Shown: positions 9,999 to 29,304 of the stretch, piece by piece
Layout: the number at the start of each line of letters is the position of its first letter
Position numbering within the stretch: the first letter of the stretch is position 1
DNA from: a phage
Direction: 5' to 3' (one strand)
Assembly: GCA_033648345.1 (NCBI GenBank)
Contig: GCA_033648345.1_4121.1
Length of the DNA stretch: 64,000 nt
Notes under the pieces: generated by a model
What the model was told of the DNA's origin: nothing
Databases searched by the model: none
The model's input: the letters and a program-made list of their open reading frames with translations, nothing else
Position numbers and translations under genes: made by a program

Positions 9999-10026
9999 TT
10001 GCAAACTAAGTTTAACGGCGTATAAT
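9999..10026 (+). promoter_or_regulatory. Class-I early promoter
   Basis: AAAGTACTTGCAA-16-TATAAT-GTTTTACATC consensus. Confidence 0.6.
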
Positions 10027-10081
10027 GTTTTACATCGAGAGCGGGAACACTTCCCGCTACATATTACGAGAGATTAAAACG

Positions 10082-10444
10082 ATGGCGACTCAAATCACTA
10101 AAATTATTGCTAACCTGGTTAACTTCCGCGACGAGATGAAAGGTCTTCCGGCTGAAACGGTAAAAATTCACATCGCAGCTTATCGGGAACTTATTGCAAT
10201 GTTGCCGCTTAAGCGTGAACAATACGCCGCGACCGTGATGCTTGATGCGATGATCCATAAGATGATCGCCAGTGATTTGACGATGGCGTATCAGTATATG
10301 GGTGAATTGTTCGCGGTGTATAGTAAACCAGTACCAGGAATGGAAAGTACAGAAGTATTACACGGTTTAAATTTAAAACAAGATGCATGGGATAATATGC
10401 CTCGTTTCCTGGTATGGGCTGACAGTGGCAAGATTTACGAATAA
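10082..10444 (+). CDS. Hypothetical early protein (120 aa)
   Basis: Start moved from track ORF 10025 to Met after the 5'UTR hairpin GCGGGAACACTTCCCGC. Confidence 0.65.
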   Translation: MATQITKIIANLVNFRDEMKGLPAETVKIHIAAYRELIAMLPLKREQYAATVMLDAMIHKMIASDLTMAYQYMGELFAVYSKPVPGMESTEVLHGLNLKQDAWDNMPRFLVWADSGKIYE

Positions 10445-10458
10445 GTTTTAGAAAGTAC

Positions 10459-10486
10459 TTGCAAACTAAGTTTAAAAGCGTATAAT
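10459..10486 (+). promoter_or_regulatory. Class-I early promoter
   Basis: TTGCAA-16-TATAAT. Confidence 0.6.
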
Positions 10487-10536
10487 GTTTTACATCAGGT
10501 GGGGAATAGTTCCCCACTATATAAGAGGATTAAAAA

Positions 10537-10776
10537 ATGGCTAAATCAAAAATGTTCTTAGGTCACAAAAACAAAACTCATTGGAATGTAAGCCTTTGGA
10601 TTAATAACGATGAGTCATTGTACCGGTTGGCCCTGGACTTTATTGCCGCCAATACTAATCGCAATGATGCGGCCCGTCATATGATGTTATTTTTAGAACA
10701 GACTGGACAAGATAAAACACCGGACGGATTCAAATATAGCACTACTGCGATCCGTGCGGCGATGGTTGGAATGTAA
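10537..10776 (+). CDS. Hypothetical early protein; paralog of 12576..12815
   Basis: Shared GHKNKTxWNVSLWINN...TPDGFKYSTTAIRAAMVGM; SD AAGAGGA. Confidence 0.7.
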   Translation: MAKSKMFLGHKNKTHWNVSLWINNDESLYRLALDFIAANTNRNDAARHMMLFLEQTGQDKTPDGFKYSTTAIRAAMVGM

Positions 10777-10861
10777 TAGAATTTATTTAAAGTACTATCG
10801 CAAAAAATGATAGTACTTTATAATAGTGTTTTATTCATACACCAACGATAAGGGCAACAGC

Positions 10862-11128
10862 ATGAATATTAAGTATTTTGCGACGCGTGAACAAGCTCGG
10901 ATCGCCGCACGCCAGGACGGGGCAACGTTTAAAGATATGGGCGTACAATCGGAACGTGGTAAACGTTGGGCCATTATAAAGCGTAGTACCGCCAGATCAT
11001 TACAGTACTGGTTAGCGGCGTTAAAAAGTCCCGATAGTGTATCGCGTCGAGTGGTAGAAATAAAGCTCGACCGAAAGGGCAACCGCGTGACCGTGTACCG
11101 TACTAAAAAGATTGCAGTACTTGAATAA
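10862..11128 (+). CDS. Hypothetical early protein; paralog of 23885..24280
   Basis: Shared KYFATREQARIAARQDGATFKDMG and DRKGNRVTVY motifs; start moved to MNIKYF. Confidence 0.65.
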   Translation: MNIKYFATREQARIAARQDGATFKDMGVQSERGKRWAIIKRSTARSLQYWLAALKSPDSVSRRVVEIKLDRKGNRVTVYRTKKIAVLE

Positions 11129-11135
11129 AAAGTAC

Positions 11136-11163
11136 TTGCAAACTATGTTTAATGGCGTATAAT
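11136..11163 (+). promoter_or_regulatory. Class-I early promoter
   Basis: TTGCAA-16-TATAAT. Confidence 0.6.
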
Positions 11164-11215
11164 GTTTTACATCGAGAGCGGGAACACTTCCCGCCTATAA
11201 CCTGGAGTAATAAAA

Positions 11216-11446
11216 ATGACTAATATGTATATGACTGAAGTTAAAACCGTAAAAGATACTACCACGAATAAAACTACTTACTTACAGCGGATCTGCGGTG
11301 TATGGCAACGTATCAGCAAATCAAAGTACTTTAAATTAACATCATATGCAAACCGTTCGGATTCATTCAGTACTGAAATAAAAGGTAATAAAGTACACCA
11401 ATACGGCACTTATTATTATTATAGCCTGGACGCGATTGCAGTATAA
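11216..11446 (+). CDS. Hypothetical early protein (76 aa)
   Basis: ORF after promoter, hairpin and SD GGAGT. Confidence 0.6.
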   Translation: MTNMYMTEVKTVKDTTTNKTTYLQRICGVWQRISKSKYFKLTSYANRSDSFSTEIKGNKVHQYGTYYYYSLDAIAV

Positions 11447-11476
11447 GCAGTTTACAAATCTTTACAATTGCCGGTA

Positions 11477-11505
11477 TTGACTTATTTTGTCAGTACTGGC
11501 ATAAT
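11477..11505 (+). promoter_or_regulatory. Promoter of convergent pair (candidate small-RNA promoter)
   Basis: TTGACT-17-CATAAT; no ORF downstream, followed by the conserved CCCA-GGGTGC leader motif. Confidence 0.5.
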
Positions 11506-11620
11506 GTATTCATTGGCAGATAAGCCGTAGCCCATAGGGTGCGGGAGTGTATCTATAGAAAAAGTAGTTTATTACAGTTACAATTGTGCACCCGGTGGGT
11601 TAGCTGTTGTCATGGGGTAT

Positions 11621-11649
11621 ATTATGCCAGTACTTGATAATGCTGTCAA
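11621..11649 (-). promoter_or_regulatory. Convergent minus-strand promoter
   Basis: Reverse complement reads TTGACA-17-CATAAT and faces the promoter at 11477. Confidence 0.5.
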
Positions 11650-11695
11650 TACTTTTTTTTACTATTCAGTACTGAAAACTATTTTTAAAAAGTAC

Positions 11696-11723
11696 TTGCA
11701 AACTATGTTTAAAGGCGTATAAT
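11696..11723 (+). promoter_or_regulatory. Class-I early promoter (P1 of tandem pair)
   Basis: TTGCAA-16-TATAAT followed by structured leader ACATCAGGACGGGGAACG... Confidence 0.55.
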
Positions 11724-11813
11724 GTTTTACATCAGGACGGGGAACGAAATAAGTAACTCCCCGTTAAGTAGCCCAGGAGTAAGGCACACGAAAAACTCCC
11801 CTGATAAAATAGT

Positions 11814-11841
11814 TTGACAAATGTTTTTAAAAGCGTATAAT
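11814..11841 (+). promoter_or_regulatory. Promoter P2 of tandem pair
   Basis: TTGACA-16-TATAAT. Confidence 0.55.
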
Positions 11842-11873
11842 ACTTACATCAACTACTGAATGAGGGTTACAAA

Positions 11874-12485
11874 ATGAAAACTATCACTACTACTACTTTC
11901 GTTATGGATTTTTCTGAATTGAACGCAGAACAAAAAACGTCAGCTATCGAACTGGTTCGGGAACGTGAAAAAAACTCAAACGACAATTATTTTTCTGAAA
12001 GTGAAATTGAATACTATAAAGAAACAGTACTACCGGAATATGGCATTAATGACGCTGAAATACAATTCAGTGGTTTTTGGTCCCAGGGTGACGGTGCATC
12101 AATCAGTACTGACCACGTTGACGGTGTGAAGTTTTTACGCAAGGTAAGAGCATTAACTAAGTATCGCTCAATCCGTCACTTGCTGAATGAAGATGATTTG
12201 GCGATGAGTGTAAAGCGTTCTCATTCTTTGTACTTGCATGAGAATACTGTAAGCGGGTACATTGAATCGGCTTACACTGATTTAACCGCAAAACAAGAAA
12301 CGTTAGTTAATGAGCTTGAGGAACTACTCACTGAAACTATTCGTGAATTATCCCGCAAGTTGTACCGTGATTTAGAGAATGCATATGAGGATCAATTCAC
12401 TACTGAAAACATCGTATCACTGATTGAGGGTAACGAATATCAATTCAATGTTATTGATGGCGTAGTAGAATCAATCGAATATTAA
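11874..12485 (+). CDS. Hypothetical acidic early protein (203 aa)
   Basis: ORF with upstream tandem promoters; SD GAGGG. Confidence 0.7.
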   Translation: MKTITTTTFVMDFSELNAEQKTSAIELVREREKNSNDNYFSESEIEYYKETVLPEYGINDAEIQFSGFWSQGDGASISTDHVDGVKFLRKVRALTKYRSIRHLLNEDDLAMSVKRSHSLYLHENTVSGYIESAYTDLTAKQETLVNELEELLTETIRELSRKLYRDLENAYEDQFTTENIVSLIEGNEYQFNVIDGVVESIEY

Positions 12486-12497
12486 TTCAAAAAGTAC

Positions 12498-12525
12498 TTG
12501 CAAACTAAGTTTAAAAGCGTATAAT
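12498..12525 (+). promoter_or_regulatory. Class-I early promoter
   Basis: TTGCAA-16-TATAAT. Confidence 0.6.
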
Positions 12526-12575
12526 ACTTTATATCGAGGCGGGGAGTGGTTCCCCGCTCAAACGAGGATTTAAAA

Positions 12576-12815
12576 ATGGCTAGTACTAAAACTTATAACG
12601 GACACAAAAACAAAACTCAATGGAATGTAAGCCTTTGGATTAATAACGGTGAGTCATTGTATCGGCTTGCACAAAGTTGTATCGCACAAAGTAGAACTAA
12701 AGATATTGCAGCGGAATGCATGTACCGCAGATTAAAAGCCAACGGTACTACTACAACGCCGGACGGCTTTAAGTATAGCACTACTGCGATCCGTGCTGCA
12801 ATGGTTGGAATGTAA
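12576..12815 (+). CDS. Hypothetical early protein; paralog of 10537..10776
   Basis: Start moved to MASTKTYNGHK after hairpin GGCGGGGAGTGGTTCCCCGC. Confidence 0.7.
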   Translation: MASTKTYNGHKNKTQWNVSLWINNGESLYRLAQSCIAQSRTKDIAAECMYRRLKANGTTTTPDGFKYSTTAIRAAMVGM

Positions 12816-12873
12816 TATTCAGTACTGTAACAATGGCGGGGAATGGTTCCCGCCTTTATTGAGGGTTTATCTA

Positions 12874-13134
12874 ATGAGTAAAGTAATTAACTATACAGTA
12901 CTAAGCAAGTCATTGTCTATCAGTGAATGCACCGATGGTTTTTGGCTTTATGATGAAACGCGTGGAATGAATTTAGCTATGCGTGTAAAAACTGCTGAGG
13001 CGGCGTATCTTGAGGCACTGGAATACTACCAGGAACGTTTAACGGAAGTAGAAGAAGATTATAAAAGCCTCAAAGCGAAAGTAGATCATTTCGTCGGTCA
13101 ATTCATCGAGGAAGACGACGATAAACAATACTGA
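12874..13134 (+). CDS. Hypothetical early protein (86 aa)
   Basis: Start moved to MSKVINY after hairpin GGCGGGGAATGGTTCCCGCC and SD GAGGG. Confidence 0.6.
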   Translation: MSKVINYTVLSKSLSISECTDGFWLYDETRGMNLAMRVKTAEAAYLEALEYYQERLTEVEEDYKSLKAKVDHFVGQFIEEDDDKQY

Positions 13135-13222
13135 AAAAAAGTACTTGCAATTAGTTTTCAGTACTGTATAATAGTTTACATCAAGTGGAGAAATGGTTCT
13201 CCCTGGTAATGAGGAAAATAAA

Positions 13223-13444
13223 ATGGCTAATATCACTACTCTTTCCCAACTGGAAGCACTGGTTAAATCTATGCGGGAACATGCCGACAAAATCGGCGTA
13301 CAAGATCCAGCCGTTTGCTTCTGCGACGAATTGAATGATGATACCCTTGTAATAGCAGAAGTCCAGGACGTTTCTAACTATTCCTCGCGTTACACTGGCG
13401 GCGTAGCAAATAAAGGCGACTTCTGTTTATACCTTACAAAATAA
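13223..13444 (+). CDS. Hypothetical early protein (73 aa)
   Basis: Start moved to MANITT after hairpin and SD. Confidence 0.6.
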   Translation: MANITTLSQLEALVKSMREHADKIGVQDPAVCFCDELNDDTLVIAEVQDVSNYSSRYTGGVANKGDFCLYLTK

Positions 13445-13449
13445 CAACG

Positions 13450-13480
13450 CGGGGAGATAATAACTCCCCGTTACTTTTTC
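13450..13480 (+). terminator. Rho-independent terminator
   Basis: CGGGGAGATAATAACTCCCCG followed by TTACTTTTT. Confidence 0.6.
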
Positions 13481-13550
13481 AGTACTGAATCATTTAATAG
13501 ACGGATCTATGCACCCGGTGGGTTAGTGACTGTTTCGTCTTGATGTAGTA

Positions 13551-13579
13551 ATTATGCCAGTACTGGATGCAGTTGTCAA
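13551..13579 (-). promoter_or_regulatory. Minus-strand promoter with conserved leader (candidate small RNA)
   Basis: Reverse complement TTGACA-17-CATAAT followed by ACATCAAGACG...CCCACCGGGTGCAT; no ORF. Confidence 0.45.
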
Positions 13580-13612
13580 CAACTATTTTTCAAATACTTT
13601 TTATTAAAATAC

Positions 13613-13640
13613 TTGCAATTAGTTTTTAAACGCGTATAAT
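13613..13640 (+). promoter_or_regulatory. Class-I early promoter
   Basis: TTGCAA-16-TATAAT. Confidence 0.55.
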
Positions 13641-13687
13641 GTTTTGCATAGGGGGAGCGGTTCCCCTGGTAACTAAGGAATAATAAA

Positions 13688-13924
13688 ATGCTTGAACAAA
13701 TCAAATCAACGTCTGCGAATGTAACGGGAACGGTAGCACACTTTACTAGTGATGAATCGCGGGGCGTTCCCTATTGTGCTGTACATGTAAACACTGATGG
13801 CAACTACTGGTTTACGGTTTACGGATCATATTCATTTGGACGGCCTGGGCATCAAAAAATTCTGGATAAAGTACAACCAACGGGTAAAAATATCACTGCC
13901 GAAATGTTTTATAAAAAATCATAA
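13688..13924 (+). CDS. Hypothetical early protein (78 aa)
   Basis: Hairpin GGGGGAGCGGTTCCCC then SD AAGGAA. Confidence 0.65.
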   Translation: MLEQIKSTSANVTGTVAHFTSDESRGVPYCAVHVNTDGNYWFTVYGSYSFGRPGHQKILDKVQPTGKNITAEMFYKKS

Positions 13925-13929
13925 AGTAC

Positions 13930-13957
13930 TTGATAATAGTTTTTAGTACTGTATAAT
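13930..13957 (+). promoter_or_regulatory. Early promoter
   Basis: TTGATA-16-TATAAT. Confidence 0.5.
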
Positions 13958-14008
13958 ATTTTACATCGCAAGGGGGAGCGGTTCCCCCTAGTAACTAAGG
14001 ATAATCAA

Positions 14009-14308
14009 ATGAAAATTGCAATCATCGCCCTGGCTTTATCTGTTTCCTCTTTCGCTGTTAATGCGTCATTAGATGTAAGTAGTGAAAAATTCATTCAGTG
14101 CACTGTTGCAATGACCGATGAAAGAACTGGCGAGATTGTATTAAAGGATTTAGAGATCCAGCCGGAAGCATTTAAAAACGGCCCGTTCCATGAAGAAGAC
14201 GAAAACGGTAGCACAACAATTTATTATGATGCCAGTACTAAACGCGGTTCGGTCACTGTAATGGATACTGAGAAAGTAACTCATACTGGCGTTATTAATT
14301 GCCGTTGA
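14009..14308 (+). CDS. Small secreted/periplasmic protein
   Basis: N-terminal signal-peptide-like MKIAIIALALSVSSFAVNA. Confidence 0.65.
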   Translation: MKIAIIALALSVSSFAVNASLDVSSEKFIQCTVAMTDERTGEIVLKDLEIQPEAFKNGPFHEEDENGSTTIYYDASTKRGSVTVMDTEKVTHTGVINCR

Positions 14309-14329
14309 TAGATACTACGGGGTAACATC

Positions 14330-14560
14330 ATGACTAAGCGAATTGTTTTACTTAACGAAAGCAGTACTACACAACTACTTAACGCCGTGCATTATGATAT
14401 TGAAACGAGCGTTAATCTTATCAGTACTGTAGTACTGTTGGACACTGGAAAGGTCGCCAATGATAAAGCGATTGCAGGTATATTAACGGATCTTGAGCCT
14501 GGTAGCAGTGCACCAATAACGTTAAATGGTAAAGTGTTTAATATTTTACTCACTGATTAA
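14330..14560 (+). CDS. Hypothetical protein (76 aa)
   Basis: ORF closely following upstream gene. Confidence 0.55.
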   Translation: MTKRIVLLNESSTTQLLNAVHYDIETSVNLISTVVLLDTGKVANDKAIAGILTDLEPGSSAPITLNGKVFNILLTD

Positions 14561-14566
14561 GTACAT

Positions 14567-14594
14567 AGCCCACCTGGTGGGCTTTTTTGTTTTT
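14567..14594 (+). terminator. Rho-independent terminator
   Basis: AGCCCACC-TGGTGGGCT followed by TTTTTTGTTTTTG. Confidence 0.75.
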
Positions 14595-14642
14595 GTAGTA
14601 TCGTAGTACTGAGATACTTTGAAAATAGTTTTAAAAAAGTAG

Positions 14643-14670
14643 TTGACATTACCGCAGAAAAGCGTAGAAT
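14643..14670 (+). promoter_or_regulatory. Early promoter
   Basis: TTGACA-16-TAGAAT followed by conserved leader ACATCAAGACGGGGAGC. Confidence 0.5.
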
Positions 14671-14793
14671 GTATTACATCAAGACGGGGAGCACTAAGTA
14701 GACCGCCAGTAAGTCGAACGAAAAACTGGACACGTCGAGAAAACTTTGATACACTAATAAACGTAAACTAAACTTTAATTGAGGATTTATAAA

Positions 14794-15276
14794 ATGGCTA
14801 ATGTAAAATCATTCATCAAAGCACTGGTAGCAAATGAAACTAACGTCGCGGCAGAGATCCTGGCTGAACTGGATAACGATACCATGAAAGCGGTACGCAA
14901 TAATTTTAACATCGCGTACAGTACTGCGAAAGAACTACAAGCAAATAAAGCAGCAGAGATCGAGGCAGCAAAGGCGGCCCGTGAAGCAGAACTACAAGCA
15001 ACAATTGAAAGTATTCAGGCGGCAGTAGTTGGATTGGATCTGGAAGTAGTTACAGAGATGGCACAAAAAGCCCTGGCGAAAAAGTACGGGGAAGACAAGC
15101 CAGAAGTAAAAGCCAAAAAATGGATTCAAGAACGTGTAGCGGTAGTACTTGATAATGGGGAAGAATATCTGATTCCGGTGCGTGGTAACTGCATTGCTGT
15201 AGTACTGGATGCGATTAACTCCAGCGGTATGACTCGCGAGGAATGGATCGAAGCTCATCGCAAAGTGGAAGCATAA
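14794..15276 (+). CDS. Hypothetical protein with Ala/Glu-rich helical segment (160 aa)
   Basis: Start moved to MANVKSF after SD GAGGA. Confidence 0.65.
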   Translation: MANVKSFIKALVANETNVAAEILAELDNDTMKAVRNNFNIAYSTAKELQANKAAEIEAAKAAREAELQATIESIQAAVVGLDLEVVTEMAQKALAKKYGEDKPEVKAKKWIQERVAVVLDNGEEYLIPVRGNCIAVVLDAINSSGMTREEWIEAHRKVEA

Positions 15277-15297
15277 CAATTAAAGTACTGAATCACT

Positions 15298-23789: not shown

Positions 23790-23811
23790 TAGAATCCATT
23801 TAAAGTACTAT

Positions 23812-23884: not shown

Positions 23885-24280
23885 ATGATTACTAAATTCT
23901 ACGCTACCCGTGAAGCTGCCCGTATTGTTGCACGCGAGGAAGGAGCAGCATTTAAAGACATGGGAACGACAGCACCGAAAGGTCAACGCTGGGCCGTACA
24001 GTTCAAAGAAATCTCTGATATTGTGAATTCACCTGAGCCAGTACTGACAGCAGCAGAACTAAAACGAGCGGATATGCTGGCGGCAATACTTGACGCACAA
24101 GATGAGTTTATCGCTGATTCTGATATCAAAGTACAGGTAAACCACACCGCATGGACTCACGCGGATCACCTGGCAAACCTTAAGCGTCCAAGTGAACTGA
24201 TTCGCAACCAGAAAGAGATCCGACATGATCGTAAGGGTAATCGTGTAACAGTATACAGTAAACGCCGCCAGGTTATCTAA
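23885..24280 (+). CDS. Hypothetical protein; paralog of 10862..11128
   Basis: Start moved to MITKFYATREAARIVAREEG. Confidence 0.65.
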   Translation: MITKFYATREAARIVAREEGAAFKDMGTTAPKGQRWAVQFKEISDIVNSPEPVLTAAELKRADMLAAILDAQDEFIADSDIKVQVNHTAWTHADHLANLKRPSELIRNQKEIRHDRKGNRVTVYSKRRQVI

Positions 24281-24302
24281 TAACTTGCAGTACTAACAAC
24301 AC

Positions 24303-24328
24303 GGCGGGATCAGTTCCCGCCTTTTTTA
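24303..24328 (+). terminator. Rho-independent terminator
   Basis: GGCGGGATCAGTTCCCGCC followed by TTTTTT. Confidence 0.75.
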
Positions 24329-24341
24329 TAGGACAAACAAA

Positions 24342-24596
24342 ATGATTAAGGTTCAACTATATAAAGATAACATCTTACGGGTACACTATAAAGCACCGAA
24401 GAGAATCATCACAAAGGCCGTACAGCTTGCTAATGAGTTTATTAATGGTAACCTATTACCGAGGAAGTTAAGCAACGGGAAACTGCGTGTAATCGACGTG
24501 GACACTAACAACAGGATAGTAATCGAGAACACAGGAAAGATAAACCTTTATGAGCATCAACAATACAATAAGAAAATAAAACTAATATCACGTTGA
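24342..24596 (+). CDS. Hypothetical protein (84 aa)
   Basis: ORF with SD GGACAAACAAA. Confidence 0.55.
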   Translation: MIKVQLYKDNILRVHYKAPKRIITKAVQLANEFINGNLLPRKLSNGKLRVIDVDTNNRIVIENTGKINLYEHQQYNKKIKLISR

Positions 24597-24621
24597 CAGT
24601 ACTCAATTGTTTTAGTATTAT
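24593..24621 (+). promoter_or_regulatory. Promoter (duplicated cassette, copy 1)
   Basis: TTGACA-17-TATTAT; cassette repeated at 24869. Confidence 0.5.
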
Positions 24622-24649
24622 GTACACATACCAACACGGGAGAAACAAA

Positions 24650-24868
24650 ATGAAATTATCTAAAATCGAAAAGAAAACTATTGATGAAGCAGTTAAGCAC
24701 GGTTATACCTTTCGTAATGATTCACATTTTACCAATTATCAACAAGGGTATCGTACTATTAAAAAACTTATTGACAAAGGTTTATTAGTTGAAGTCAATA
24801 ACGGCAATGGCATTGAGTATCAACCAACACAGGACGCATTTTATTTTAAGAAATATAATATTATCTAA
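24650..24868 (+). CDS. Hypothetical protein (72 aa)
   Basis: Start moved to MKLSKIEKK after SD GGGAGAAA. Confidence 0.6.
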   Translation: MKLSKIEKKTIDEAVKHGYTFRNDSHFTNYQQGYRTIKKLIDKGLLVEVNNGNGIEYQPTQDAFYFKKYNII

Positions 24869-24898
24869 TTGACAGTACTCAAATGTTTTAGTACTATA
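24869..24898 (+). promoter_or_regulatory. Promoter (duplicated cassette, copy 2)
   Basis: TTGACA-18-TACTAT. Confidence 0.45.
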
Positions 24899-24926
24899 TG
24901 TACATACCAACACGGGGGAAAACAAA

Positions 24927-25169
24927 ATGATTACTTTAGAAAAACGTATCAAAGAAACTACATCGCTGGTGGAATTGTTAACAGTACTCAAATGTAAAAC
25001 AACACCATTCAGCACGCCGGACTTTATTAATATGGTTGATGTTAACGGTCGTTATCGCATTGCAGTAGAACATGGAACAGCGAAAGTATTCAGTACTAAA
25101 AACACTAAGGAAGTGATTCACGCGGTTAGTGTGAAAAAAGTGGTTGCCATTGATAGTAAAGTACTGTAA
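24927..25169 (+). CDS. Hypothetical protein (80 aa)
   Basis: ORF after duplicated promoter cassette. Confidence 0.6.
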   Translation: MITLEKRIKETTSLVELLTVLKCKTTPFSTPDFINMVDVNGRYRIAVEHGTAKVFSTKNTKEVIHAVSVKKVVAIDSKVL

Positions 25170-25200
25170 TATAGTTTCATTAACTCAAGGAGTAAATGCA

Positions 25201-25785
25201 ATGCGTAATTATACTAAATTCATCCGTACACTGTCAGAAATGGAAACCAACAAAGAGATCCTTTCAGCTTGTCGGTTAGCTGGCCTGGAGATCATCGGTG
25301 CTGGTTCTTCCCGTATAGTATTCGCTTTAAATGATCGGTTAGTGATTAAGGTCGCGAATTGTGATGCGGGTGTAGAACAAAATGAAACTGAATGTAAGGT
25401 ATGGAATTTTTTAGACTATGACCGCCCTCAGTTGAAACAGTACTTTGCAAAGGTGCATATGCATTTATGCGATCCTGATAATATGTTTATCGTTATGGAT
25501 CGGTTGAGTACTGCAAGCAAAGGCAGTGTGAAGCACGTTAACGCGTGCAATGAATTAAAGTACAATATTAAACGTAATGCAATCGAACGCCAGCACCGCT
25601 TTGCTGATGCACTACAACACGTTGATGATACATTATCAACACTAACGATAAGAGATATCAGAAAACAGAATATCGGCCAGGATCGTAATGGCCTTATTAA
25701 AGTACTTGATTACGGTTTAACCAGCAATATCTGGAATCAGTACTATAAAAAGCGTGATGTGGCAGCAAGTAAAGTAACACGATAA
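25201..25785 (+). CDS. Protein-kinase-like protein (Ser/Thr kinase fold motifs)
   Basis: Gly-rich loop IGAGSSRIV plus Lys VIKVA; catalytic-loop-like RDIRKQNIG; DYG in place of DFG. Start moved to MRNYTKF after SD AAGGAG. Confidence 0.5.
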   Translation: MRNYTKFIRTLSEMETNKEILSACRLAGLEIIGAGSSRIVFALNDRLVIKVANCDAGVEQNETECKVWNFLDYDRPQLKQYFAKVHMHLCDPDNMFIVMDRLSTASKGSVKHVNACNELKYNIKRNAIERQHRFADALQHVDDTLSTLTIRDIRKQNIGQDRNGLIKVLDYGLTSNIWNQYYKKRDVAASKVTR

Positions 25786-25796
25786 AAAAAGATTAA

Positions 25797-25833
25797 AAAA
25801 GGGATTGACTCCGGTCAGTCCCTTTGCTATTAT
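25797..25833 (+). terminator. Terminator hairpin with embedded promoter-like TTGACT
   Basis: Same element as 22519. Confidence 0.7.
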
Positions 25834-25925
25834 ATATTCATTGAGAGATAACTCACTGACCCATAGGGTGCGGAAGTGTATCTATTATATAAGCATTCAG
25901 TACTGAAAACTATTTTAAAAAAGTA

Positions 25926-25954
25926 CTTGCATTGTACTTAGAATCAAGTATAAT
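25926..25954 (+). promoter_or_regulatory. Class-I early promoter
   Basis: TTGCAT-17-TATAAT. Confidence 0.6.
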
Positions 25955-26008
25955 GTTTTATATCGAGAGGGGGAAATGGTTCTCCCTGGTACATTAAGGA
26001 ATAAAATC

Positions 26009-26416
26009 ATGACTACTACTAATCAAGCTCGGTCCATCGCCAACGATAAAAATCATGCTGCAATGGTCGCTGGTTACATTGAAGCTATGCAATTCAGTAC
26101 TGTACACAATGAGAACGGCGAATACCTGGAAGATTATGAATTATCAGAGCAAGCCCATCAAGCGGCAGTGATTGCATGTTCACGTTTCCTTGCTGTACAT
26201 GGTGAAGATATGGAAACAGTACAAAAACACCATAATCCTGATTATACTTATAGTCATGCAGGTCATGATCTCTTTCTTACTCGCGAAGGTCACGGCACTG
26301 GTTTTTGGGATCGTGATATCGGTCACTATGATGATATATTCACTAAGTACTGCGAAGAAATCAACGTTTGCGATCCCTATGTAGGCGATGATAATCTAAT
26401 CTATATGGGCGAATAA
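26009..26416 (+). CDS. Hypothetical His-rich protein (135 aa)
   Basis: Start moved to MTTTNQ after hairpin and SD AAGGAA. Confidence 0.65.
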   Translation: MTTTNQARSIANDKNHAAMVAGYIEAMQFSTVHNENGEYLEDYELSEQAHQAAVIACSRFLAVHGEDMETVQKHHNPDYTYSHAGHDLFLTREGHGTGFWDRDIGHYDDIFTKYCEEINVCDPYVGDDNLIYMGE

Positions 26417-26422
26417 AAGTAT

Positions 26423-26450
26423 TTGACAAAGTATATCAGTACTGTATAAT
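26423..26450 (+). promoter_or_regulatory. Class-II early promoter
   Basis: TTGACA-16-TATAAT. Confidence 0.6.
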
Positions 26451-26504
26451 AGTTTACATCAAGGGGAGAATAGTTCTCCCCCACCAATAAAAGGAAACAA
26501 AATT

Positions 26505-26777
26505 ATGTCCAGCTACTCCGCTACTATGATCATTAAAGATATGAACGGTAATCCTACTTCTGCTGGTGGATCATTTGGAAACATTAATTTAGATGGTCGG
26601 TTATCCATGCAATCAGCCATCGATGCAGCGAAAGAAGTTTTTAAGAATGAATGTACTGTAAGTAAGCTGGATTATATGGGATTCGCTATCGAAAAAACTA
26701 ATCGTTTTGTGAACTACAAAAATCCACTGATGATCGATACTAACCTGAAAGCAAACGAAGTGGGGTACTTATTATGA
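26505..26777 (+). CDS. Hypothetical protein (90 aa)
   Basis: ORF after hairpin GGGGAGAATAGTTCTCCCCC. Confidence 0.65.
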   Translation: MSSYSATMIIKDMNGNPTSAGGSFGNINLDGRLSMQSAIDAAKEVFKNECTVSKLDYMGFAIEKTNRFVNYKNPLMIDTNLKANEVGYLL

Positions 26778-26965
26778 CAGTTGAAGAAGTTAAAAAAGTA
26801 CTGGCAGTACTACGCTATCATAATCATTGCAAGGTGAAGAATGATCCTGATTATCTCGATTCATCCCTGGAAGAGGATACACTACAAGCAATAAGCCATA
26901 TGCAAAAAATGCTTAAGCGTATGACCGAAAAGAATAGGCCGGACTATATCGGAAATAAAATTTAA
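26774..26965 (+). CDS. Hypothetical protein (63 aa)
   Basis: ATGA-coupled ORF. Confidence 0.55.
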   Translation: MTVEEVKKVLAVLRYHNHCKVKNDPDYLDSSLEEDTLQAISHMQKMLKRMTEKNRPDYIGNKI

Positions 26966-26972
26966 AAAGTAC

Positions 26973-27000
26973 TTGCATTGTAGTTAGATTAACGTATAAT
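26973..27000 (+). promoter_or_regulatory. Class-I early promoter
   Basis: TTGCAT-16-TATAAT. Confidence 0.6.
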
Positions 27001-27052
27001 GTTTTATATCGAGAGGGGGAAATGGTTTCCCCTCAAGTCCAGGAGATACACC

Positions 27053-27316
27053 ATGAACACTATCGAAATCACTATCAATGCACACGTATACGACAACGTA
27101 GTACTGCAAACTACTATGACCGCTAATGATACCAGTACTTTGCGGAATACTGTTATTAGTGCCGTATGTGCTGCAATCGGTGATGTATCCCTGGAAAATG
27201 CAGAACATATCAACAACGGTTTCACTATGTGCAAGCGTGATAACGCAAAACATATCATCGTGGAAGGTTACGGCGGTGTAGAATTTAATGTTTATATGAA
27301 AAAAGTACTTGCATAA
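27053..27316 (+). CDS. Hypothetical protein (87 aa)
   Basis: Start moved to MNTIEIT after hairpin GAGGGGGAAATGGTTTCCCCTC and SD AGGAGA. Confidence 0.65.
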   Translation: MNTIEITINAHVYDNVVLQTTMTANDTSTLRNTVISAVCAAIGDVSLENAEHINNGFTMCKRDNAKHIIVEGYGGVEFNVYMKKVLA

Positions 27317-27335
27317 TAACTAAAACAAAGTATAA
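27308..27335 (+). promoter_or_regulatory. Class-I early promoter
   Basis: TTGCAT-16-TATAAT. Confidence 0.55.
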
Positions 27336-27383
27336 TGTTTTGCATAGGGGGAGATATCCTCCCCCACTAAAAGGAGTAATAAA

Positions 27384-27608
27384 ATGGCTAACTTTGATGA
27401 ACTGATGCGGGAAGTAGCTAACCTGGCAGAAGAGAAGAAATCATTCGATTCTATCTATAACACCGCTCACCGTGATTCAGTACTGGCATGTAACCAGGAT
27501 CAAAAAGATGAACTAATCGCCACCTATCATGAAGCATGGAAGTACTACCGACAATGGGAGAAAGAAGAAAGTGAGTCTACCATTGACGGCCTCAATAATC
27601 TAATCTAA
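27384..27608 (+). CDS. Hypothetical acidic protein (74 aa)
   Basis: ORF after hairpin GGGGGAGATATCCTCCCCC and SD AAGGAG. Confidence 0.65.
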   Translation: MANFDELMREVANLAEEKKSFDSIYNTAHRDSVLACNQDQKDELIATYHEAWKYYRQWEKEESESTIDGLNNLI

Positions 27609-27684
27609 AAGTTTTATTTCAGTACTATTGACATAGCTTGATAGTACTGATGTAATAACTTTACTAACTACAAGGGGAAACATA

Positions 27685-27942
27685 ATGGAACAGTTCACAC
27701 AATATCGGGTAAATCCACAAGCTATGGCCTACGTAGAAGACCATAAAACGTTACCAGTACTGCAACCAGTTAAAGGCCGTATCTATCGTGGCCTTGCCTG
27801 GGATACGGCCCAGGATGGATATAAAACCGTCGCCGTGGGGATGTATTGCGGGAATGGTGAATGGTTTGATCCTAGCAATCCGATTGCACTTGACAGTACT
27901 GAAAAAATGAAATGGGCCGACTACATCGAAGATATTTCATAA
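27685..27942 (+). CDS. Hypothetical protein (85 aa)
   Basis: ORF with upstream TTGACA promoter-like element. Confidence 0.6.
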   Translation: MEQFTQYRVNPQAMAYVEDHKTLPVLQPVKGRIYRGLAWDTAQDGYKTVAVGMYCGNGEWFDPSNPIALDSTEKMKWADYIEDIS

Positions 27943-27949
27943 AAACTAT

Positions 27950-27977
27950 TTGACAGTACTAACCAGTAATGTATAAT
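27950..27977 (+). promoter_or_regulatory. Class-II early promoter
   Basis: TTGACA-16-TATAAT. Confidence 0.6.
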
Positions 27978-28032
27978 GTTTTACATAGAGCGGGGGAATA
28001 GTTCTCCCGCCAATAGTTTGGAGTTAAACATT

Positions 28033-28233
28033 ATGTCTATCGCTATCGCCCTGGTTGAAGTACTGAAAGAAGCTAAAGCCAACCAGATCGACGTAAAGAT
28101 CCAGGAACTACAAAACGGCTTAATCGGCTGTACTTGTACCGCTGGTGGAGCGGCAGACTATCGAGAACACGAATCACTCGAATCACTGGTTCGGTATCTT
28201 ACCATGATCGTTGATGATTGGAGAATCATCTAA
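28033..28233 (+). CDS. Hypothetical protein (66 aa)
   Basis: Start moved to MSIAIALVEV after hairpin GCGGGGGAATAGTTCTCCCGC and SD GGAG. Confidence 0.6.
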   Translation: MSIAIALVEVLKEAKANQIDVKIQELQNGLIGCTCTAGGAADYREHESLESLVRYLTMIVDDWRII

Positions 28234-28247
28234 CAAAAAAAGAATAA

Positions 28248-28284
28248 AAAAGGGATTGACTCCGGTCAGTCCCTTTGCTATTAT
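28248..28284 (+). terminator. Terminator hairpin with embedded promoter-like TTGACT
   Basis: Same element as 22519. Confidence 0.7.
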
Positions 28285-28480
28285 ATACGCATAGACAAAA
28301 ACTAGCCCACAGGGTGCATAGGTGTATCTAAAATATATAGTTAATAACGGTGAGTAACTATCTGCTGGTGGAGTGAAAACTATTAATAAAAAAAACTATT
28401 GACAAAGTATATCAGTACTGCAATAATGTATCTCGTAGGGCGGCAATGGTGCGACGGCCCACAAAGTTAGGAGATTCAAA

Positions 28481-28813
28481 ATGAGTACTTCAATCGCTAT
28501 CGTTAAAGCTTTCATCCGTACCAATGTTTCATCTGTATTCATCGACGGTCTGGATCGGGAAGTAGAATACTCAATCATTATCGCACAGACTGCAAACGGT
28601 GCTCGGTATATCCTTAATAATAGTGAAGCAAATCACTACTACTTCACTAAAGCTACTGGCTTTAAACGCATCGATGCTGACGTAGTATACACTAAGATGA
28701 ATAAGCTGGTAGACAAGATTAACGCGAAAGGTACTATCGATTTACAGTACTGGACCGAAACCGATCCAGAATATGGATCTCACCGCTACCTGAATCCAGG
28801 TATTAAAATGTAA
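28481..28813 (+). CDS. Hypothetical protein (110 aa)
   Basis: ORF with SD AGGAGA. Confidence 0.65.
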   Translation: MSTSIAIVKAFIRTNVSSVFIDGLDREVEYSIIIAQTANGARYILNNSEANHYYFTKATGFKRIDADVVYTKMNKLVDKINAKGTIDLQYWTETDPEYGSHRYLNPGIKM

Positions 28814-28820
28814 AAAGTAC

Positions 28821-28848
28821 TTGCATAGTACTTAGATTCATGTATAAT
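28821..28848 (+). promoter_or_regulatory. Class-I early promoter
   Basis: TTGCAT-16-TATAAT. Confidence 0.6.
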
Positions 28849-28902
28849 GTTTTACATAGAGAGGGGGAAATGGTTCTCCCTCCTAAATTAAGGAGTTTTA
28901 TC

Positions 28903-29304
28903 ATGACCTTCTCAATCACTTCCTTCGCTGACGTTTTAGTACTGGCTCGGACTTTTGGTAAAGCTGGCCTTGAGCACGCTGTAAGTAATGGTCATATGCA
29001 CCCTGAATATTGCCGCATCATTGGAAGCTGTAAACGTTGGGCTGTGTCCCGTAACATTGAGATTGAAAACTTCAATGACGGTAACAACGAATATACAGTT
29101 GATGCAGTATTCGAAGTCGTTGATCTCGGCGGTATCTATAACACTAACCTGAATGATGTGCGTATCGTTCGCACGGGGTTCGGTGCTTATGATGTATCTA
29201 TCCGTGAAGCTATGGACAAGGGATACATTAGCAAGGACCAGTTAGCTTACATCATGCAGCAAACTAAGGAACGTAACGAAGCACGCACTATCTTAGGACT
29301 GTAA
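28903..29304 (+). CDS. Hypothetical protein (133 aa)
   Basis: Start moved to MTFSITSF after hairpin and SD AAGGAG. Confidence 0.65.
   Translation: MTFSITSFADVLVLARTFGKAGLEHAVSNGHMHPEYCRIIGSCKRWAVSRNIEIENFNDGNNEYTVDAVFEVVDLGGIYNTNLNDVRIVRTGFGAYDVSIREAMDKGYISKDQLAYIMQQTKERNEARTILGL

What the first reader, a model, noticed from the sequence alone, without database searches (positions are those of the whole stretch)
10000..29000. Conserved G-rich stem-loop in the 5'UTR of about 25 early genes
Between the -10/TSS and the Shine-Dalgarno of most genes in the early block lies a hairpin of the family GGGGAGAA-ATGG-TTCTCCCC, with variants such as GCGGGAACACTTCCCGC and GGGGGAGCGGTTCCCC. Instances start near 10041, 10498, 11181, 12536, 12836, 13186, 13651, 13968, 16050, 17866, 18099, 18683, 19121, 19391, 21228, 21849, 22151, 23147, 23426, 25968, 26461, 27013, 27349, 27991, 28862. 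They are not followed by U-tracts, so they are not terminators. They also occur between cistrons without a promoter (12836). Candidates: 5' stabiliser hairpins, RNase processing sites, or an operator for an RNA-binding translational regulator.
Basis: seen in the sequence. Interest (0 to 1): 0.7.

Follow-up and report, generated by a model that had tools for sequence, protein, structure and literature searches.

The report
Early-gene promoter stem-loop cassettes
About 25 small early genes of this jumbo coliphage each carry the same promoter, G-rich hairpin and ribosome-site cassette. The hairpins are real and selected as structures, but they belong to a cassette type (PeSL) already described in T4-like phages, and their function remains untested.

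Summary
All 25 hairpins exist (dG -9 to -16 kcal/mol). Each starts 8-14 nt after a near-consensus sigma-70 -10 box and ends 17-23 nt before an ATG. They lie only on the coding strand and only in the 10-29 kb early block. That block matches the ~21-kb terminal repeat of Asteriusvirus jumbo phages such as PBECO4 and 121Q. Stable hairpins are about 13-fold over chance there.

Stems covary strongly. Orthologous genes in related phages carry different but still complementary stems. The same layout occurs in RaK2-like, rV5-like and phi92-like phages with quite different stem sequences.

The element is not new in kind. It fits the PeSL ("promoter-early stem-loop") cassettes of the T4-like phages RB49 and phi1 (Arbiol et al. 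2010), here in the subclass with the stem-loop downstream of the -10 box. Only one of the 25 has a T-rich tail (12835), so they are not canonical terminators.

The variety of stems and loops argues against a sequence-specific operator. Stems of 6-9 bp argue against RNase III sites.

My best reading is a passive cis-acting RNA hairpin that caps early mRNA ends, inside a recombination-prone mobile cassette. This mechanism is inferred, not shown.

The parts
9999..29350 (+). Early block of small same-strand ORFs, each with its own strong sigma-70 promoter. It corresponds to the ~21-kb direct terminal repeat of Asteriusvirus phages.
10040..10058 (+). 5'UTR hairpin AGCGGGAA-cac-TTCCCGCT, 13 nt after the -10 box and 23 nt before the ATG
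10498..10518 (+). 5'UTR hairpin GGTGGGGAA-tag-TTCCCCACT
11178..11194 (+). 5'UTR hairpin GCGGGAA-cac-TTCCCGC
12538..12558 (+). 5'UTR hairpin GGCGGGGA-gtggt-TCCCCGCT
12835..12854 (+). Intercistronic hairpin GGCGGGGA-atgg-TTCCCGCC with no consensus promoter. It is followed by TTTATTGAGG, so it looks like a terminator or attenuator. It contains an internal G.U pair.
13187..13202 (+). Weakened 5'UTR hairpin GGAGAA-atgg-TTCTCC. The JP4 orthologue has the full GGGGAGAA stem.
13649..13668 (+). 5'UTR hairpin TAGGGGGA-gcgg-TTCCCCTG. It is the first cassette after a terminator.
13971..13989 (+). 5'UTR hairpin AGGGGGA-gcggt-TCCCCCT
16050..16069 (+). 5'UTR hairpin GGGGAGAA-atgg-TTCTCCCC
17870..17889 (+). 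5'UTR hairpin GGGGAGAA-atga-TTCTCCCC
18099..18118 (+). 5'UTR hairpin GGGGAGAA-atgg-TTCTCCCC
18687..18705 (+). 5'UTR hairpin AGGGGAAA-cgg-TTTCCCCT. It is the first cassette after a terminator-like hairpin.
19120..19138 (+). 5'UTR hairpin GGGGAGAA-tag-TTCTCCCC
19389..19408 (+). 5'UTR hairpin GGGGAGAA-aaac-TTCTCCCC
21230..21248 (+). 5'UTR hairpin AGGGGAA-acatc-TTCCCCT
21853..21872 (+). 5'UTR hairpin GGGGAGAA-atga-TTCTCCCC
22152..22166 (+). 5'UTR hairpin GGGGAA-tag-TTCCCC, extendable by outer pairs. The orthologous gene in JP4 has no cassette.
23154..23173 (+). 5'UTR hairpin GAGGGGAA-acgg-TTCCCCTC
23425..23444 (+). 5'UTR hairpin GAGGGGAA-acgg-TTCCCCTC
25968..25987 (+). 5'UTR hairpin AGGGGGAA-atgg-TTCTCCCT with an internal G.U pair. 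It is the first cassette after a terminator.
26463..26481 (+). 5'UTR hairpin GGGGAGAA-tag-TTCTCCCC
27013..27034 (+). 5'UTR hairpin GAGGGGGAA-atgg-TTTCCCCTC with an internal G.U pair
27347..27365 (+). 5'UTR hairpin GGGGGAG-atatc-CTCCCCC
27990..28010 (+). 5'UTR hairpin GCGGGGGAA-tag-TTCTCCCGC with an internal G.U pair
28861..28882 (+). 5'UTR hairpin GAGGGGGAA-atgg-TTCTCCCTC with an internal G.U pair. The end of the 3' arm can alternatively pair with the Shine-Dalgarno AGGAG.
13450..13470 (+). Hairpin of the same G-first stem style (CGGGGAG...CTCCCCG) but followed by a T-tract. It is a true terminator at the end of a unit.
24303..24321 (+). Same stem style, GGCGGGA-tcagt-TCCCGCC, followed by TTTTTT and then the next gene's ribosome site. 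It is the terminator version of the family.
11737..11764 (+). Long-loop G-first hairpin 13 nt after a consensus promoter that has no ORF downstream. A paralogue lies at 22697-22722.

Best explanation
These are PeSL-type ("promoter-early stem-loop") expression cassettes. Each small early ORF has five parts in order. An A-rich upstream element and a near-consensus sigma-70 promoter (TTGCAA or TTGACA, N16, TATAAT) come first. A conserved ACAT start region follows. A 6-9 bp hairpin with a G-rich 5' arm and a C-rich 3' arm comes next. A 5-10 nt A-rich spacer follows. A Shine-Dalgarno and ATG close the cassette.

Shown:
- The hairpin is maintained as a base-paired structure and not as a sequence.
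- It follows the direction of transcription.
- It tolerates G.U pairs.
- It lacks a U-tract.

Inferred:
- It is transcribed as roughly nt +5 to +25 of the cassette's own mRNA, and as an intercistronic hairpin in RNA reading through from upstream promoters.
- It acts passively in cis, without a dedicated protein. It acts as an end-cap for early mRNAs, hindering 5'-end-dependent decay of its own message.
- It gives read-through or processed upstream RNA a 3' hairpin that acts as an exonuclease barrier or mild attenuator.
- It keeps the adjacent ribosome site unstructured.
- The ~90-bp cassette as a whole also serves as homology for modular shuffling of early ORFans between phages.

Confidence that it is a PeSL-type cassette is about 0.85. 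Confidence in the RNA end-protection mechanism is about 0.4.
For: Geometry and enrichment.

Structure selected over sequence:
- Covariation is 0.454 against 0.181 in shuffles and 0.10-0.19 for slid controls.
- Orthologous genes in JP4, 121Q, EJP2, A5-4, muut and IMG/VR contigs are preceded by different but still complementary stems. Examples are GGTGGGGAA/TTCCCCACT, GCGGGAA/TTCCCGC and AGGCGGCGGA/TCCACCGCCT.
- RaK2 uses GGGATACA/TGTATCCC and GGGAATGAA/TTCATTCCC in the same position.

RNA level:
- Internal mismatches in 5'UTR hairpins are mostly G.T (11 G.T against 5 A.C or C.A among 62 unique hairpins, and those five are non-family hairpins or an alignment artefact).
- The sense-strand fold is more stable than the antisense fold in 89 cases against 46 (Wilcoxon p = 0.0015).
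- The G-rich arm is 5' in 138 of 145 instances relative to the gene, in the + strand genes surveyed.
- The G-first polarity is also seen on RB49's minus-strand genes.

Not terminators: 24 of 25 lack a T-rich tail. The 8 nt after the stem are 47% A.

Own-transcript role: the first cassettes after terminators (13649, 18687, 25968) still carry the hairpin.

PeSL identity:
- The published description reads sigma-70 promoter, AT-rich upstream, G(N)-loop-C(N) stem-loop, Shine-Dalgarno and ATG, flanking ORFans, with five positional subclasses including one downstream of the -10 box.
- RB49 ORF207 has exactly the window's layout.
- Homology-block ends between the window and three relatives fall inside hairpin cassettes in 38 of 100 cases, although the cassettes cover only 12.5% of the region.

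Precedent for 5' hairpins stabilising E. coli mRNA: the ompA and papA work listed in PMC3997798.
Against: - No transcript ends have been mapped. The start site is predicted only.
- With a start at the conserved CA of ACAT, the unpaired leader is about 4-7 nt. To my recollection of Emory et al. 1992, this is longer than the 2-4 nt limit for 5'-terminal protection.
- RNase E readily bypasses a simple orthogonal stem-loop when scanning (PMC9943677). A hairpin that is not at the very 5' end may therefore protect little.
- In RB49 most PeSL stem-loops lie inside the promoter spacer or overlap the -10 box. The family-wide function therefore cannot be a 5'UTR function.
- Arbiol et al. report that one such stem-loop reduced a downstream reporter as strongly as rrnB T1.
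- One contig (L127) carries five copies of a variant with an internal C.A mismatch. This weakens the G.U asymmetry argument.
- The sense/antisense stability difference is small (0.6 kcal/mol) and could reflect nearest-neighbour asymmetries.
- The constant position could partly reflect common descent of the cassettes.
Confidence: 0.42

Rival explanations
1. Transcription attenuator or terminator, as proposed for PeSLs. The hairpin stops or thins RNA polymerase arriving from upstream cassettes. In the window's layout it also self-attenuates its own very strong promoter. This insulates tandem transcription units and prevents overexpression or spill-over.
For: - Arbiol et al. 2010 report that the stem-loop of PeSL211/210 lowered lacZ like rrnB T1, and that native PeSL promoters were too strong to clone.
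- The same stem family followed by T-tracts forms real terminators at 13450 and 24303.
- 12835 has a TTTATT tail.
- Dozens of tandem consensus promoters have few canonical terminators between them.
Against: - 24 of 25 lack a U-tract, and the downstream 8 nt are A-rich.
- The hairpin lies downstream of the gene's only promoter. Efficient termination would silence the gene.
- In RB49-type cassettes the stem is followed by the U/A-rich -10 box. The measured termination may therefore not transfer to the window's type.
- First cassettes after true terminators still carry the hairpin.
Confidence: 0.2
2. Operator or recognition site for a trans-acting factor. This could be a phage or host RNA-binding protein or endonuclease that shuts off or processes the whole early regulon. 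It would resemble a RegA- or RegB-type early shut-off, or the binding of a protein to a hairpin as with lambda N and boxB.
For: - About 25 co-regulated genes share one motif.
- A GGG...CCC clamp at the stem base and A-U pairs next to the loop are nearly invariant.
- Loops favour (A)UGG and UAG.
- The 5' arm often contains GGAG.
- Without the 5' arm, the pyrimidine-rich 3' arm is predicted to pair with the Shine-Dalgarno in most cassettes.
Against: - More than 25 different loops and many unrelated inner stems occur within single genomes and across Asteriusvirus, RaK2, rV5-like and phi92-like phages.
- No conserved bulge or loop base is present.
- The predicted pairings with the Shine-Dalgarno are weak (-1 to -6 kcal/mol) and are expected from composition alone.
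- No RNA-binding domain was found among 10 early proteins tested, though most of the genome lies outside the window.
Confidence: 0.1
3. DNA-level element. The G/C-rich palindrome in AT-rich DNA acts as a cruciform or as a recombination or junction-nuclease site, driving cassette shuffling. Alternatively it is an operator for a dimeric DNA-binding repressor sitting just downstream of the start site.
For: - Homology breakpoints are enriched 3-fold in the cassettes.
- Arbiol et al. mapped a crossover inside a stem-loop and found mini-circles.
- In RB49 and PHA46 the palindromes sit inside promoters, where they cannot all be in the cassette's own RNA.
- The position, about +5 to +25, is a classic operator position.
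Against: - Half-sites are not conserved in sequence. They covary, which a protein operator would not require.
- G.T mismatches are tolerated.
- Polarity follows the gene's direction.
- Breakpoint enrichment is also expected for any repeated intergenic sequence.
Confidence: 0.1
4. Translation insulator. A strong local hairpin placed at the 5' edge of the 30S binding site locks up G-rich and C-rich sequence. It shields the ribosome site from upstream RNA context, whether the mRNA is the cassette's own or read-through. Each mobile cassette then gives context-independent translation.
For: - The hairpin-to-ATG distance of 17-24 nt is kept in over 140 cassettes across phage groups, and in promoter-less copies.
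- The Shine-Dalgarno is unpaired in most full-length predicted folds.
Against: - There is no direct evidence.
- The spacing could be inherited with the cassette.
- Cassettes without hairpins, such as the promoters at 11814, 19662, 20774 and 22772, have ordinary-looking ribosome sites.
Confidence: 0.1

Closest known systems
PeSL (promoter-early stem-loop) cassettes of the T4-like phages RB49 and phi1, also PST and nt-1 (Arbiol et al. 2010, PMC2839356; Comeau et al. 2014, PMC4122927)
   Same: - Near-consensus sigma-70 promoter with an AT-rich upstream region
- Stable G(N)-loop-C(N) stem-loop
- Shine-Dalgarno and ATG at the 3' end
- Dozens of copies flanking small ORFans in a hyperplastic early region
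- Cassette-bounded gene replacement
- RB49 ORF207 has the same -10, 12 nt, hairpin, Shine-Dalgarno layout
   Different: - In RB49 most stem-loops lie in the promoter spacer or overlap the -10 box, and in PST and nt-1 they lie upstream of the promoter. Here essentially all lie 8-14 nt downstream of the -10 box, inside the cassette's own 5'UTR.
- The hosts of the cassette are RaK2-like jumbo phages and rV5/phi92-like phages, for which I found no published description.
- The published functional reading is terminator plus recombination site, not a 5'UTR element.
5'-terminal stabilising stem-loops of E. coli mRNAs (ompA, papA; Emory, Bouvet, Arnold, Bricker and Belasco) and the 5' stem-loop of the T7 phi10 leader (GGGAGACCACAACGGTTTCCC; from my own knowledge)
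   Same: A short GC-rich hairpin with a G-first 5' arm near the mRNA 5' end, followed by a short leader and a strong ribosome site. It is protein-independent and portable.
   Different: Those hairpins start within 0-4 nt of the 5' end. Here the predicted unpaired leader is about 4-7 nt and the start site is unmapped. Stabilisation has not been tested.
Rho-independent terminators
   Same: A GC-rich stem of 6-9 bp with a small loop. The same stem family followed by T-tracts is used as true terminators at 13450 and 24303.
   Different: 24 of 25 have no U-tract, and they lie downstream of the gene's own promoter.
Protein-binding RNA hairpins of phages (lambda boxB with N, MS2 or PP7 coat-protein operators, the T4 gp43 operator; from my own knowledge)
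   Same: A small hairpin near the start of phage transcripts or ribosome sites, present in many copies.
   Different: Those depend on conserved loop or bulge bases. Here loops and inner stems vary freely. No boxA-like partner or bulge is present.

Membership tests
PeSL cassette | Strong sigma-70-like early promoter with an AT-rich upstream region | tested here: met
   TTGCAA or TTGACA, N16, TATAAT preceded by AAAAGTAC in 24 of 25 cassettes
PeSL cassette | Adjacent stable stem-loop, typically polyG-loop-polyC | tested here: met
   6-9 bp stems, dG -9 to -16 kcal/mol. The G-rich arm is 5' in 138 of 145 instances.
PeSL cassette | Shine-Dalgarno and start codon of the downstream gene at the 3' end of the motif | tested here: met
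   Shine-Dalgarno 5-10 nt and ATG 17-23 nt after the stem
PeSL cassette | Many copies flanking small genes of unknown function in a variable region | tested here: met
   25 copies in 19 kb. ORFs are 47-203 aa and mostly lack a Pfam match. Gene content varies between relatives.
PeSL cassette | Position of the stem-loop relative to the promoter falls in one of five described subclasses | tested here: met
   It matches the subclass downstream of the -10 box. RB49 ORF207 shows the same layout. The uniform use of this one subclass is the difference.
PeSL cassette | Mediates recombination: indels and replacements bounded by cassettes, and mini-circles | tested here: inconclusive
   38 of 100 homology-block ends fall in cassettes that cover 12.5% of the region, and cassettes are swapped in front of orthologous genes. 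Mini-circles cannot be tested in silico.
PeSL cassette | The stem-loop terminates or attenuates transcription | not testable with these tools
   Only sequence evidence is available: no U-tract in 24 of 25.
5'-terminal stabilising stem-loop (ompA / T7 phi10 type) | Hairpin within about 0-4 nt of the transcript 5' end | tested here: inconclusive
   The start site is only predicted. The -10 to stem distance of 8-14 nt implies about 1-7 (mostly 4-7) unpaired nt.
5'-terminal stabilising stem-loop (ompA / T7 phi10 type) | Lengthens mRNA half-life in an RNase E / RppH-dependent way | not testable with these tools
   Needs rifampicin-chase experiments.
Rho-independent terminator | GC-rich hairpin immediately followed by a U-tract | tested here: not met
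   Only 12835 of the 25 is called by the terminator scan.
RNase III processing site | About 20 bp of (interrupted) double-stranded RNA | tested here: not met
   Stems are 6-9 bp.
Sequence-specific protein operator hairpin (boxB or MS2-like) | Conserved loop or bulge nucleotides | tested here: not met
   More than 25 loop sequences of 3-6 nt and no bulge.
Any curated RNA family (Rfam 15) | Covariance-model match | tested here: not met
   No relevant hit at E <= 1 in 9000-30500.

The most novel reading that the evidence does not exclude
The placement just after the start site is itself the mechanism. The hairpin may be a position-dependent insulator or switch. One version holds that polymerase freshly started at the adjacent promoter ignores it, while polymerase or RNA arriving from upstream cassettes is attenuated or processed there. 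Another version is an anti-anti-Shine-Dalgarno device. A GGAG-specific, RegB-like early shut-off nuclease would cut the G-rich 5' arm. This would free the CUCC-containing 3' arm to mask the Shine-Dalgarno and switch off the whole early regulon at once.
Probability: 0.08. Interest if true: 0.65.

Novelty: new member of a known kind. Interest (0 to 1): 0.33.

Why it matters
The finding extends PeSL cassettes from T4-like phages to RaK2-like jumbo phages (Asteriusvirus, Alcyoneusvirus, Munch/PHA46-like). It also extends them to rV5-like and phi92-like coliphages. These groups exchange early ORFans together with their cassettes.

In these groups the stem-loop is fixed inside the 5'UTR. That position is hard to reconcile with the published terminator reading, and the conflict can be tested directly.

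On the practical side, the cassettes are compact, very strong and portable expression units. They also mark the early, terminal-repeat region in genome annotation, where they are currently not annotated.

Tried and rejected
1. A scan of IMG/VR for the promoter 15-mer TATAATGTTTTACAT returned mostly chance matches in unrelated contigs. I used these only as a negative control.
2. The Rfam scan gave nothing relevant.
3. I considered the hairpin as an obstacle to RNase E scanning. I rejected this because orthogonal stem-loops are readily bypassed (PMC9943677).
4. I considered that G-first polarity might distinguish 5'UTR hairpins from terminators. It does not: terminator-like hairpins are also mostly G-first (26 against 9).
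5. The AUG in the AUGG loops could be a conserved upstream ORF. I rejected this because the reading frames and stop positions are inconsistent between copies (10 codons ending in ATGA at 16050, 6 codons at 17870, in frame with the gene at 18099).
6. T-depletion after the stem is only mild (23% against 27%).
7. Anti-Shine-Dalgarno pairing of the 3' arm is weak and explained by composition.
8. Literature searches found no transcript mapping for Asteriusvirus, Vequintavirinae or Stephanstirmvirinae. The genome papers I read for CBB, phAPEC6, rV5 and fEgEco12 do not mention these hairpins.
9. MAFFT alignment of the 25 instances was not structure-aware. I used equal-length loop-anchored sequences instead. 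Those instances were selected as hairpins, so the percentage paired is circular. Only the covariation measures are informative.

Full report
**Source of the window.** The window is 94-97% identical to Asteriusvirus jumbo coliphages of about 350-380 kb, including Turkey3, Ecwhy_1, BF17, PBECO4, 121Q and phAPEC6. The 10-29 kb region is a run of small + strand ORFs, mostly without a known family. A DksA/TraR zinc finger and a GNAT acetyltransferase reach Pfam's cut-offs, and a protein-kinase match is weak and below cut-off. One cassette is 100% identical to fEgEco12 at position 12,768, inside that phage's experimentally supported 20,993-bp direct terminal repeat (PMC13070987). The JP4 record shows the same block duplicated 20.1 kb apart. 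The "early block" therefore corresponds to the terminal repeat of these phages.

**Check of the observation.**
- All 25 positions fold into a local hairpin of 6-9 bp with a 3-5 nt loop and dG of -8.9 to -16.4 kcal/mol.
- 24 of the 25 follow a near-consensus sigma-70 promoter (TTGCAA or TTGACA, N16, TATAAT, often preceded by AAAAGTAC).
- The stem begins 8-14 nt (mostly 12-14) after the -10 hexamer and ends 17-23 nt before the ATG. A Shine-Dalgarno lies 5-10 nt after the stem.
- Stable hairpins on the + strand of 10000-29000 number 39, against 2.9 (maximum 5) in dinucleotide shuffles.
- A covariance model built from 13 copies finds all 25 on the + strand and nothing convincing elsewhere in the 64 kb.
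- Hairpins in a 5'UTR context number 23 on the + strand and 0 on the - strand.
- The same -10/discriminator 15-mer in 113 unrelated viral-contig sites is followed by a stable hairpin once.
- Only one of the 25 has a T-rich tail. This is the promoter-less copy at 12835, followed by TTTATTGAGG.

**The hairpin is a selected structure.**
- Within the window the stems differ while staying complementary. Examples are GGGGAGAA/TTCTCCCC, GAGGGGAA/TTCCCCTC, GCGGGAA/TTCCCGC, GTGGGGAA/TTCCCCAC, AGGGGAAA/TTTCCCCT and GGGGGAG/CTCCCCC.
- I anchored on the first 120 nt of each downstream gene and compared relatives. The same gene is preceded by different stems in different phages.
  - The gene at 10537 has GGTGGGGAA/TTCCCCACT in the window and in JP4 and 121Q.
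  - It has GCGGGAA/TTCCCGC in muut and two IMG/VR contigs.
  - It has AGGCGGCGGA/TCCACCGCCT in a third contig.
  - It has no hairpin in A5-4.
- Point differences are mostly pairing-preserving steps along A-U, G.U and G-C.
- On 34 loop-anchored four-loop instances from several phages the covariation score is 0.454. Column shuffles give 0.181 +/- 0.019 (0 of 500 reach the observed value) and slid partners give 0.10-0.19. Nine of 10 pairs show changes on both sides.
- Caveat: these instances were picked as hairpins, so the percentage paired is circular. The covariation measures are not.

**RNA or DNA level.**
- Among 62 unique 5'UTR hairpins, internal mismatches were G.T 11 and A.C or C.A 5. The latter five were non-family hairpins or an alignment artefact.
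- One IMG/VR contig carries five copies of a variant with an internal C.A (GCGGCGGA/TCCACCGC). The asymmetry is therefore suggestive only.
- The sense-strand RNA fold is more stable than the antisense fold in 89 instances against 46, with a mean difference of 0.6 kcal/mol (Wilcoxon p = 0.0015).
- The G-rich arm is 5' with respect to the gene in 138 of 145 instances. RB49's minus-strand genes show the same polarity.
- Much of this polarity is what transition-based compensation from a G-first ancestor would preserve.

I conclude that an RNA-level structure on the coding strand is likely but not proven.

**Distribution.**
- The same layout of -10 box, about 10-14 nt containing (C)ACAT, G-first hairpin, short A-rich spacer, Shine-Dalgarno and ATG is abundant in several groups:
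  - other Asteriusviruses (EJP2, JP4, 121Q);
  - the Salmonella jumbo phage PHA46;
  - Klebsiella RaK2;
  - Vequintavirinae (A5-4, rV5);
  - Stephanstirmvirinae (muut);
  - three large IMG/VR contigs.
- A 96-nt cassette also matches RaK2, K64-1, Muenster, Munch, 7t3 and an Erwinia jumbo phage at 74-80% identity.
- Stems there are often unrelated in sequence. Examples are GGCGGCA/TGCCGCC, GGGGCG/CGCCCC, GGGATACA/TGTATCCC and GGGAATGAA/TTCATTCCC.
- Loops include AUGG, UGG, UAG, AUAG, CAC, GAG, UAC, ACAAC, ACAUC, GCAA, GUAA, UUA and UAA.
- What stays constant is a GGG...CCC clamp at the base, A-U pairs next to the loop, and the position.

**What is already known.**
- The element matches the PeSL ("promoter-early stem-loop") cassettes described in the T4-like phages RB49 and phi1.
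- Those cassettes comprise a near-perfect sigma-70 promoter with an AT-rich upstream region. [quoted passage not shown]
- They occur in many copies flanking ORFans in hyperplastic regions.
- Five subclasses are defined by stem-loop position, including "downstream of the -10" (PMC2839356). The class was extended to PST/T4 and nt-1/KVP40 (PMC4122927).
- I read the RB49 ORF185-229 region. Most stem-loops there sit in the promoter spacer or overlap the -10 box, for example TTGACA-GGGGATcacgtATCCCC-TATACT. ORF207 has exactly the window's layout. PHA46 has both types.
- Arbiol et al. interpret the stem-loop as a terminator or attenuator of upstream transcription. One stem-loop lowered lacZ like rrnB T1. 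They interpret the cassettes as recombination sites that shuffle ORFans, on the basis of mini-circles.
- Consistent with shuffling, 38 of 100 homology-block ends between the window and JP4, 121Q and EJP2 fall in hairpin cassettes that cover 12.5% of the region. Any intergenic repeat would show some such enrichment.
- I found no description of these hairpins for Asteriusvirus, RaK2-like, rV5-like or phi92-like phages in the papers available. No transcript mapping was found either.

**How it probably works.**
- Shown: a structure-selected, coding-strand-polar hairpin without a U-tract, fixed between the promoter and the ribosome site.
- Inferred: with a start at the conserved CA of ACAT (7-8 nt after the -10 box), the hairpin occupies about +5 to +25 of its own mRNA. 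Few terminators separate the cassettes, so it is also an intercistronic hairpin in read-through RNA.
- Efficient termination there would silence the gene's only promoter. First cassettes after real terminators (13649, 18687, 25968) keep the hairpin. I therefore favour a passive cis role on RNA.
- That role has three parts. It protects the 5' end of the cassette's own message. It provides a 3' hairpin that acts as a barrier or mild attenuator for upstream RNA. It keeps the ribosome site context-independent. The cassette doubles as recombination homology.
- Precedents for the first part are the ompA and papA 5' stem-loops (references in PMC3997798). From my own knowledge, the T7 phi10 leader hairpin GGGAGACCACAACGGTTTCCC is another.
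- Against this reading:
  - The predicted 4-7 nt unpaired leader is longer than the 2-4 nt I recall as the limit for 5'-terminal protection.
  - RNase E bypasses orthogonal stem-loops when scanning (PMC9943677).
  - The RB49-type positions show that the family-wide role cannot be a 5'UTR role.
- Confidence in the mechanism is therefore only about 0.4. Confidence in the PeSL assignment is about 0.85.

**Rivals.**
- Attenuator or terminator (0.2). It is supported by the published reporter result and by the T-tract versions at 13450 and 24303. The missing U-tracts and the position after the gene's own promoter argue against it.
- Operator for a trans-acting RNA-binding factor or nuclease (0.1). 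The diversity of loops and stems argues against it. The pairing of the 3' arm with the Shine-Dalgarno seen when the 5' arm is removed is weak and driven by composition.
- DNA-level cruciform, recombination site or repressor operator (0.1). Covariation of half-sites and G.T tolerance argue against a protein operator. A recombination role for the whole cassette is compatible with the main reading.
- Translation insulator (0.1).
- RNase III sites are excluded by stem length.
- No Rfam family matches.

**Verdict.** The element is a member of a known kind (PeSL), in phage groups and in a uniform positional subclass not described before. Interest is moderate to low. The open and testable point is what a stem-loop placed just after the start site does.

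Noticed in passing
whole window; dense in 1-29600, none in 30000-35000 and 40000-45000: The palindromic hexamer AGTACT occurs 286 times, against 19.4 +/- 4.1 expected, about 15-fold over. It lies inside coding regions and at fixed places in the early promoters: aAGTACTTGCAA at the -35 box and cAGTACTGTATAAT before the -10 box. This suggests a binding or modification motif.
   Followed up: partly
window + strand 11531, 18579, 20241, 22577, 25860, 28306; - strand 13511, 11588, 9637, 9421: A repeated ~30-nt element, yTARCCCAyyGGGTGCryAaaTGTAyCTAT, lies shortly downstream of strong promoters of the form TTGAC-N17-(C/T)AT(A/T)AT. Two copies lie in convergent orientation around 11480-11650. This is a candidate small-RNA family. 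No Rfam match was found.
   Followed up: partly
window 11696-11815, 14643-14790, 22656-22775: Three consensus promoters are followed by about 90 nt of structured RNA with no ORF, and then by the next promoter. The structure comprises a long-loop G-first hairpin, ACGGGGAAC...CTCCCCGT, and a second hairpin. The copies at 11737 and 22697 are paralogues. These are candidate non-coding RNAs or leaders.
   Followed up: partly
window 18517-18544, 22520-22547, 25798-25825, 28249-28276: A 12-bp terminator-like hairpin, AAAGGGATTGAC-tccg-GTCAGTCCCTTT, is repeated at the ends of gene groups. Its 5' arm and loop contain TTGACT, which with a TATTAT 17 nt downstream forms a promoter-like site. The result is a compact terminator/promoter overlap.
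   Followed up: no
window 16242-16271, 16536-16565, 19654-19683, 27619-27650: A second promoter class has a 12-13 bp palindrome, CAGTACTATTGA-catagt-TTGATAGTACTG, that covers the -35 box and spacer and is followed by GCATAAT or TATAAT. This class has no 5'UTR hairpin.
   Followed up: no
L002 (Salmonella phage PHA46) 16293, 18444, 22037, 28074; L207 (RB49) upstream of ORFs 185, 192, 198, 225-227: In these promoters a G-first palindrome spans the spacer and the -10 box itself, for example GGGAGTATT-atat-AATACTCCC. The hairpin therefore cannot be complete in the promoter's own transcript. This is the RB49-type PeSL subclass.
   Followed up: partly
window 10537-10776 and 12577-12815: Two paralogous 79-aa DUF7249 proteins are present. 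Relatives of this family are encoded in about 80 viral contigs of very different size and GC content, some as small as about 43 kb. Several early ORFs share 80-90% nucleotide identity with Vequintavirinae and Stephanstirmvirinae phages, which indicates recent exchange between unrelated phage groups.
   Followed up: partly
L004 (JP4) 113-2576 and 20227-22690: The JP4 record contains the early block twice, 20.1 kb apart. This is consistent with a ~20-21 kb direct terminal repeat assembled internally. The window's order of blocks is circularly permuted relative to JP4.
   Followed up: partly
window 16059-16091, 17879-17899, 18108-18139: Many loops read AUGG, so an AUG sits in the loop 2-3 nt after a GGAG in the 5' arm. 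The resulting short reading frames differ between copies: one ends in ATGA overlapping the gene start, one stops before the Shine-Dalgarno, and one is in frame with the gene. ORF callers may mis-start genes at the loop AUG, as with the ORF called at 18107-18289.
   Followed up: partly
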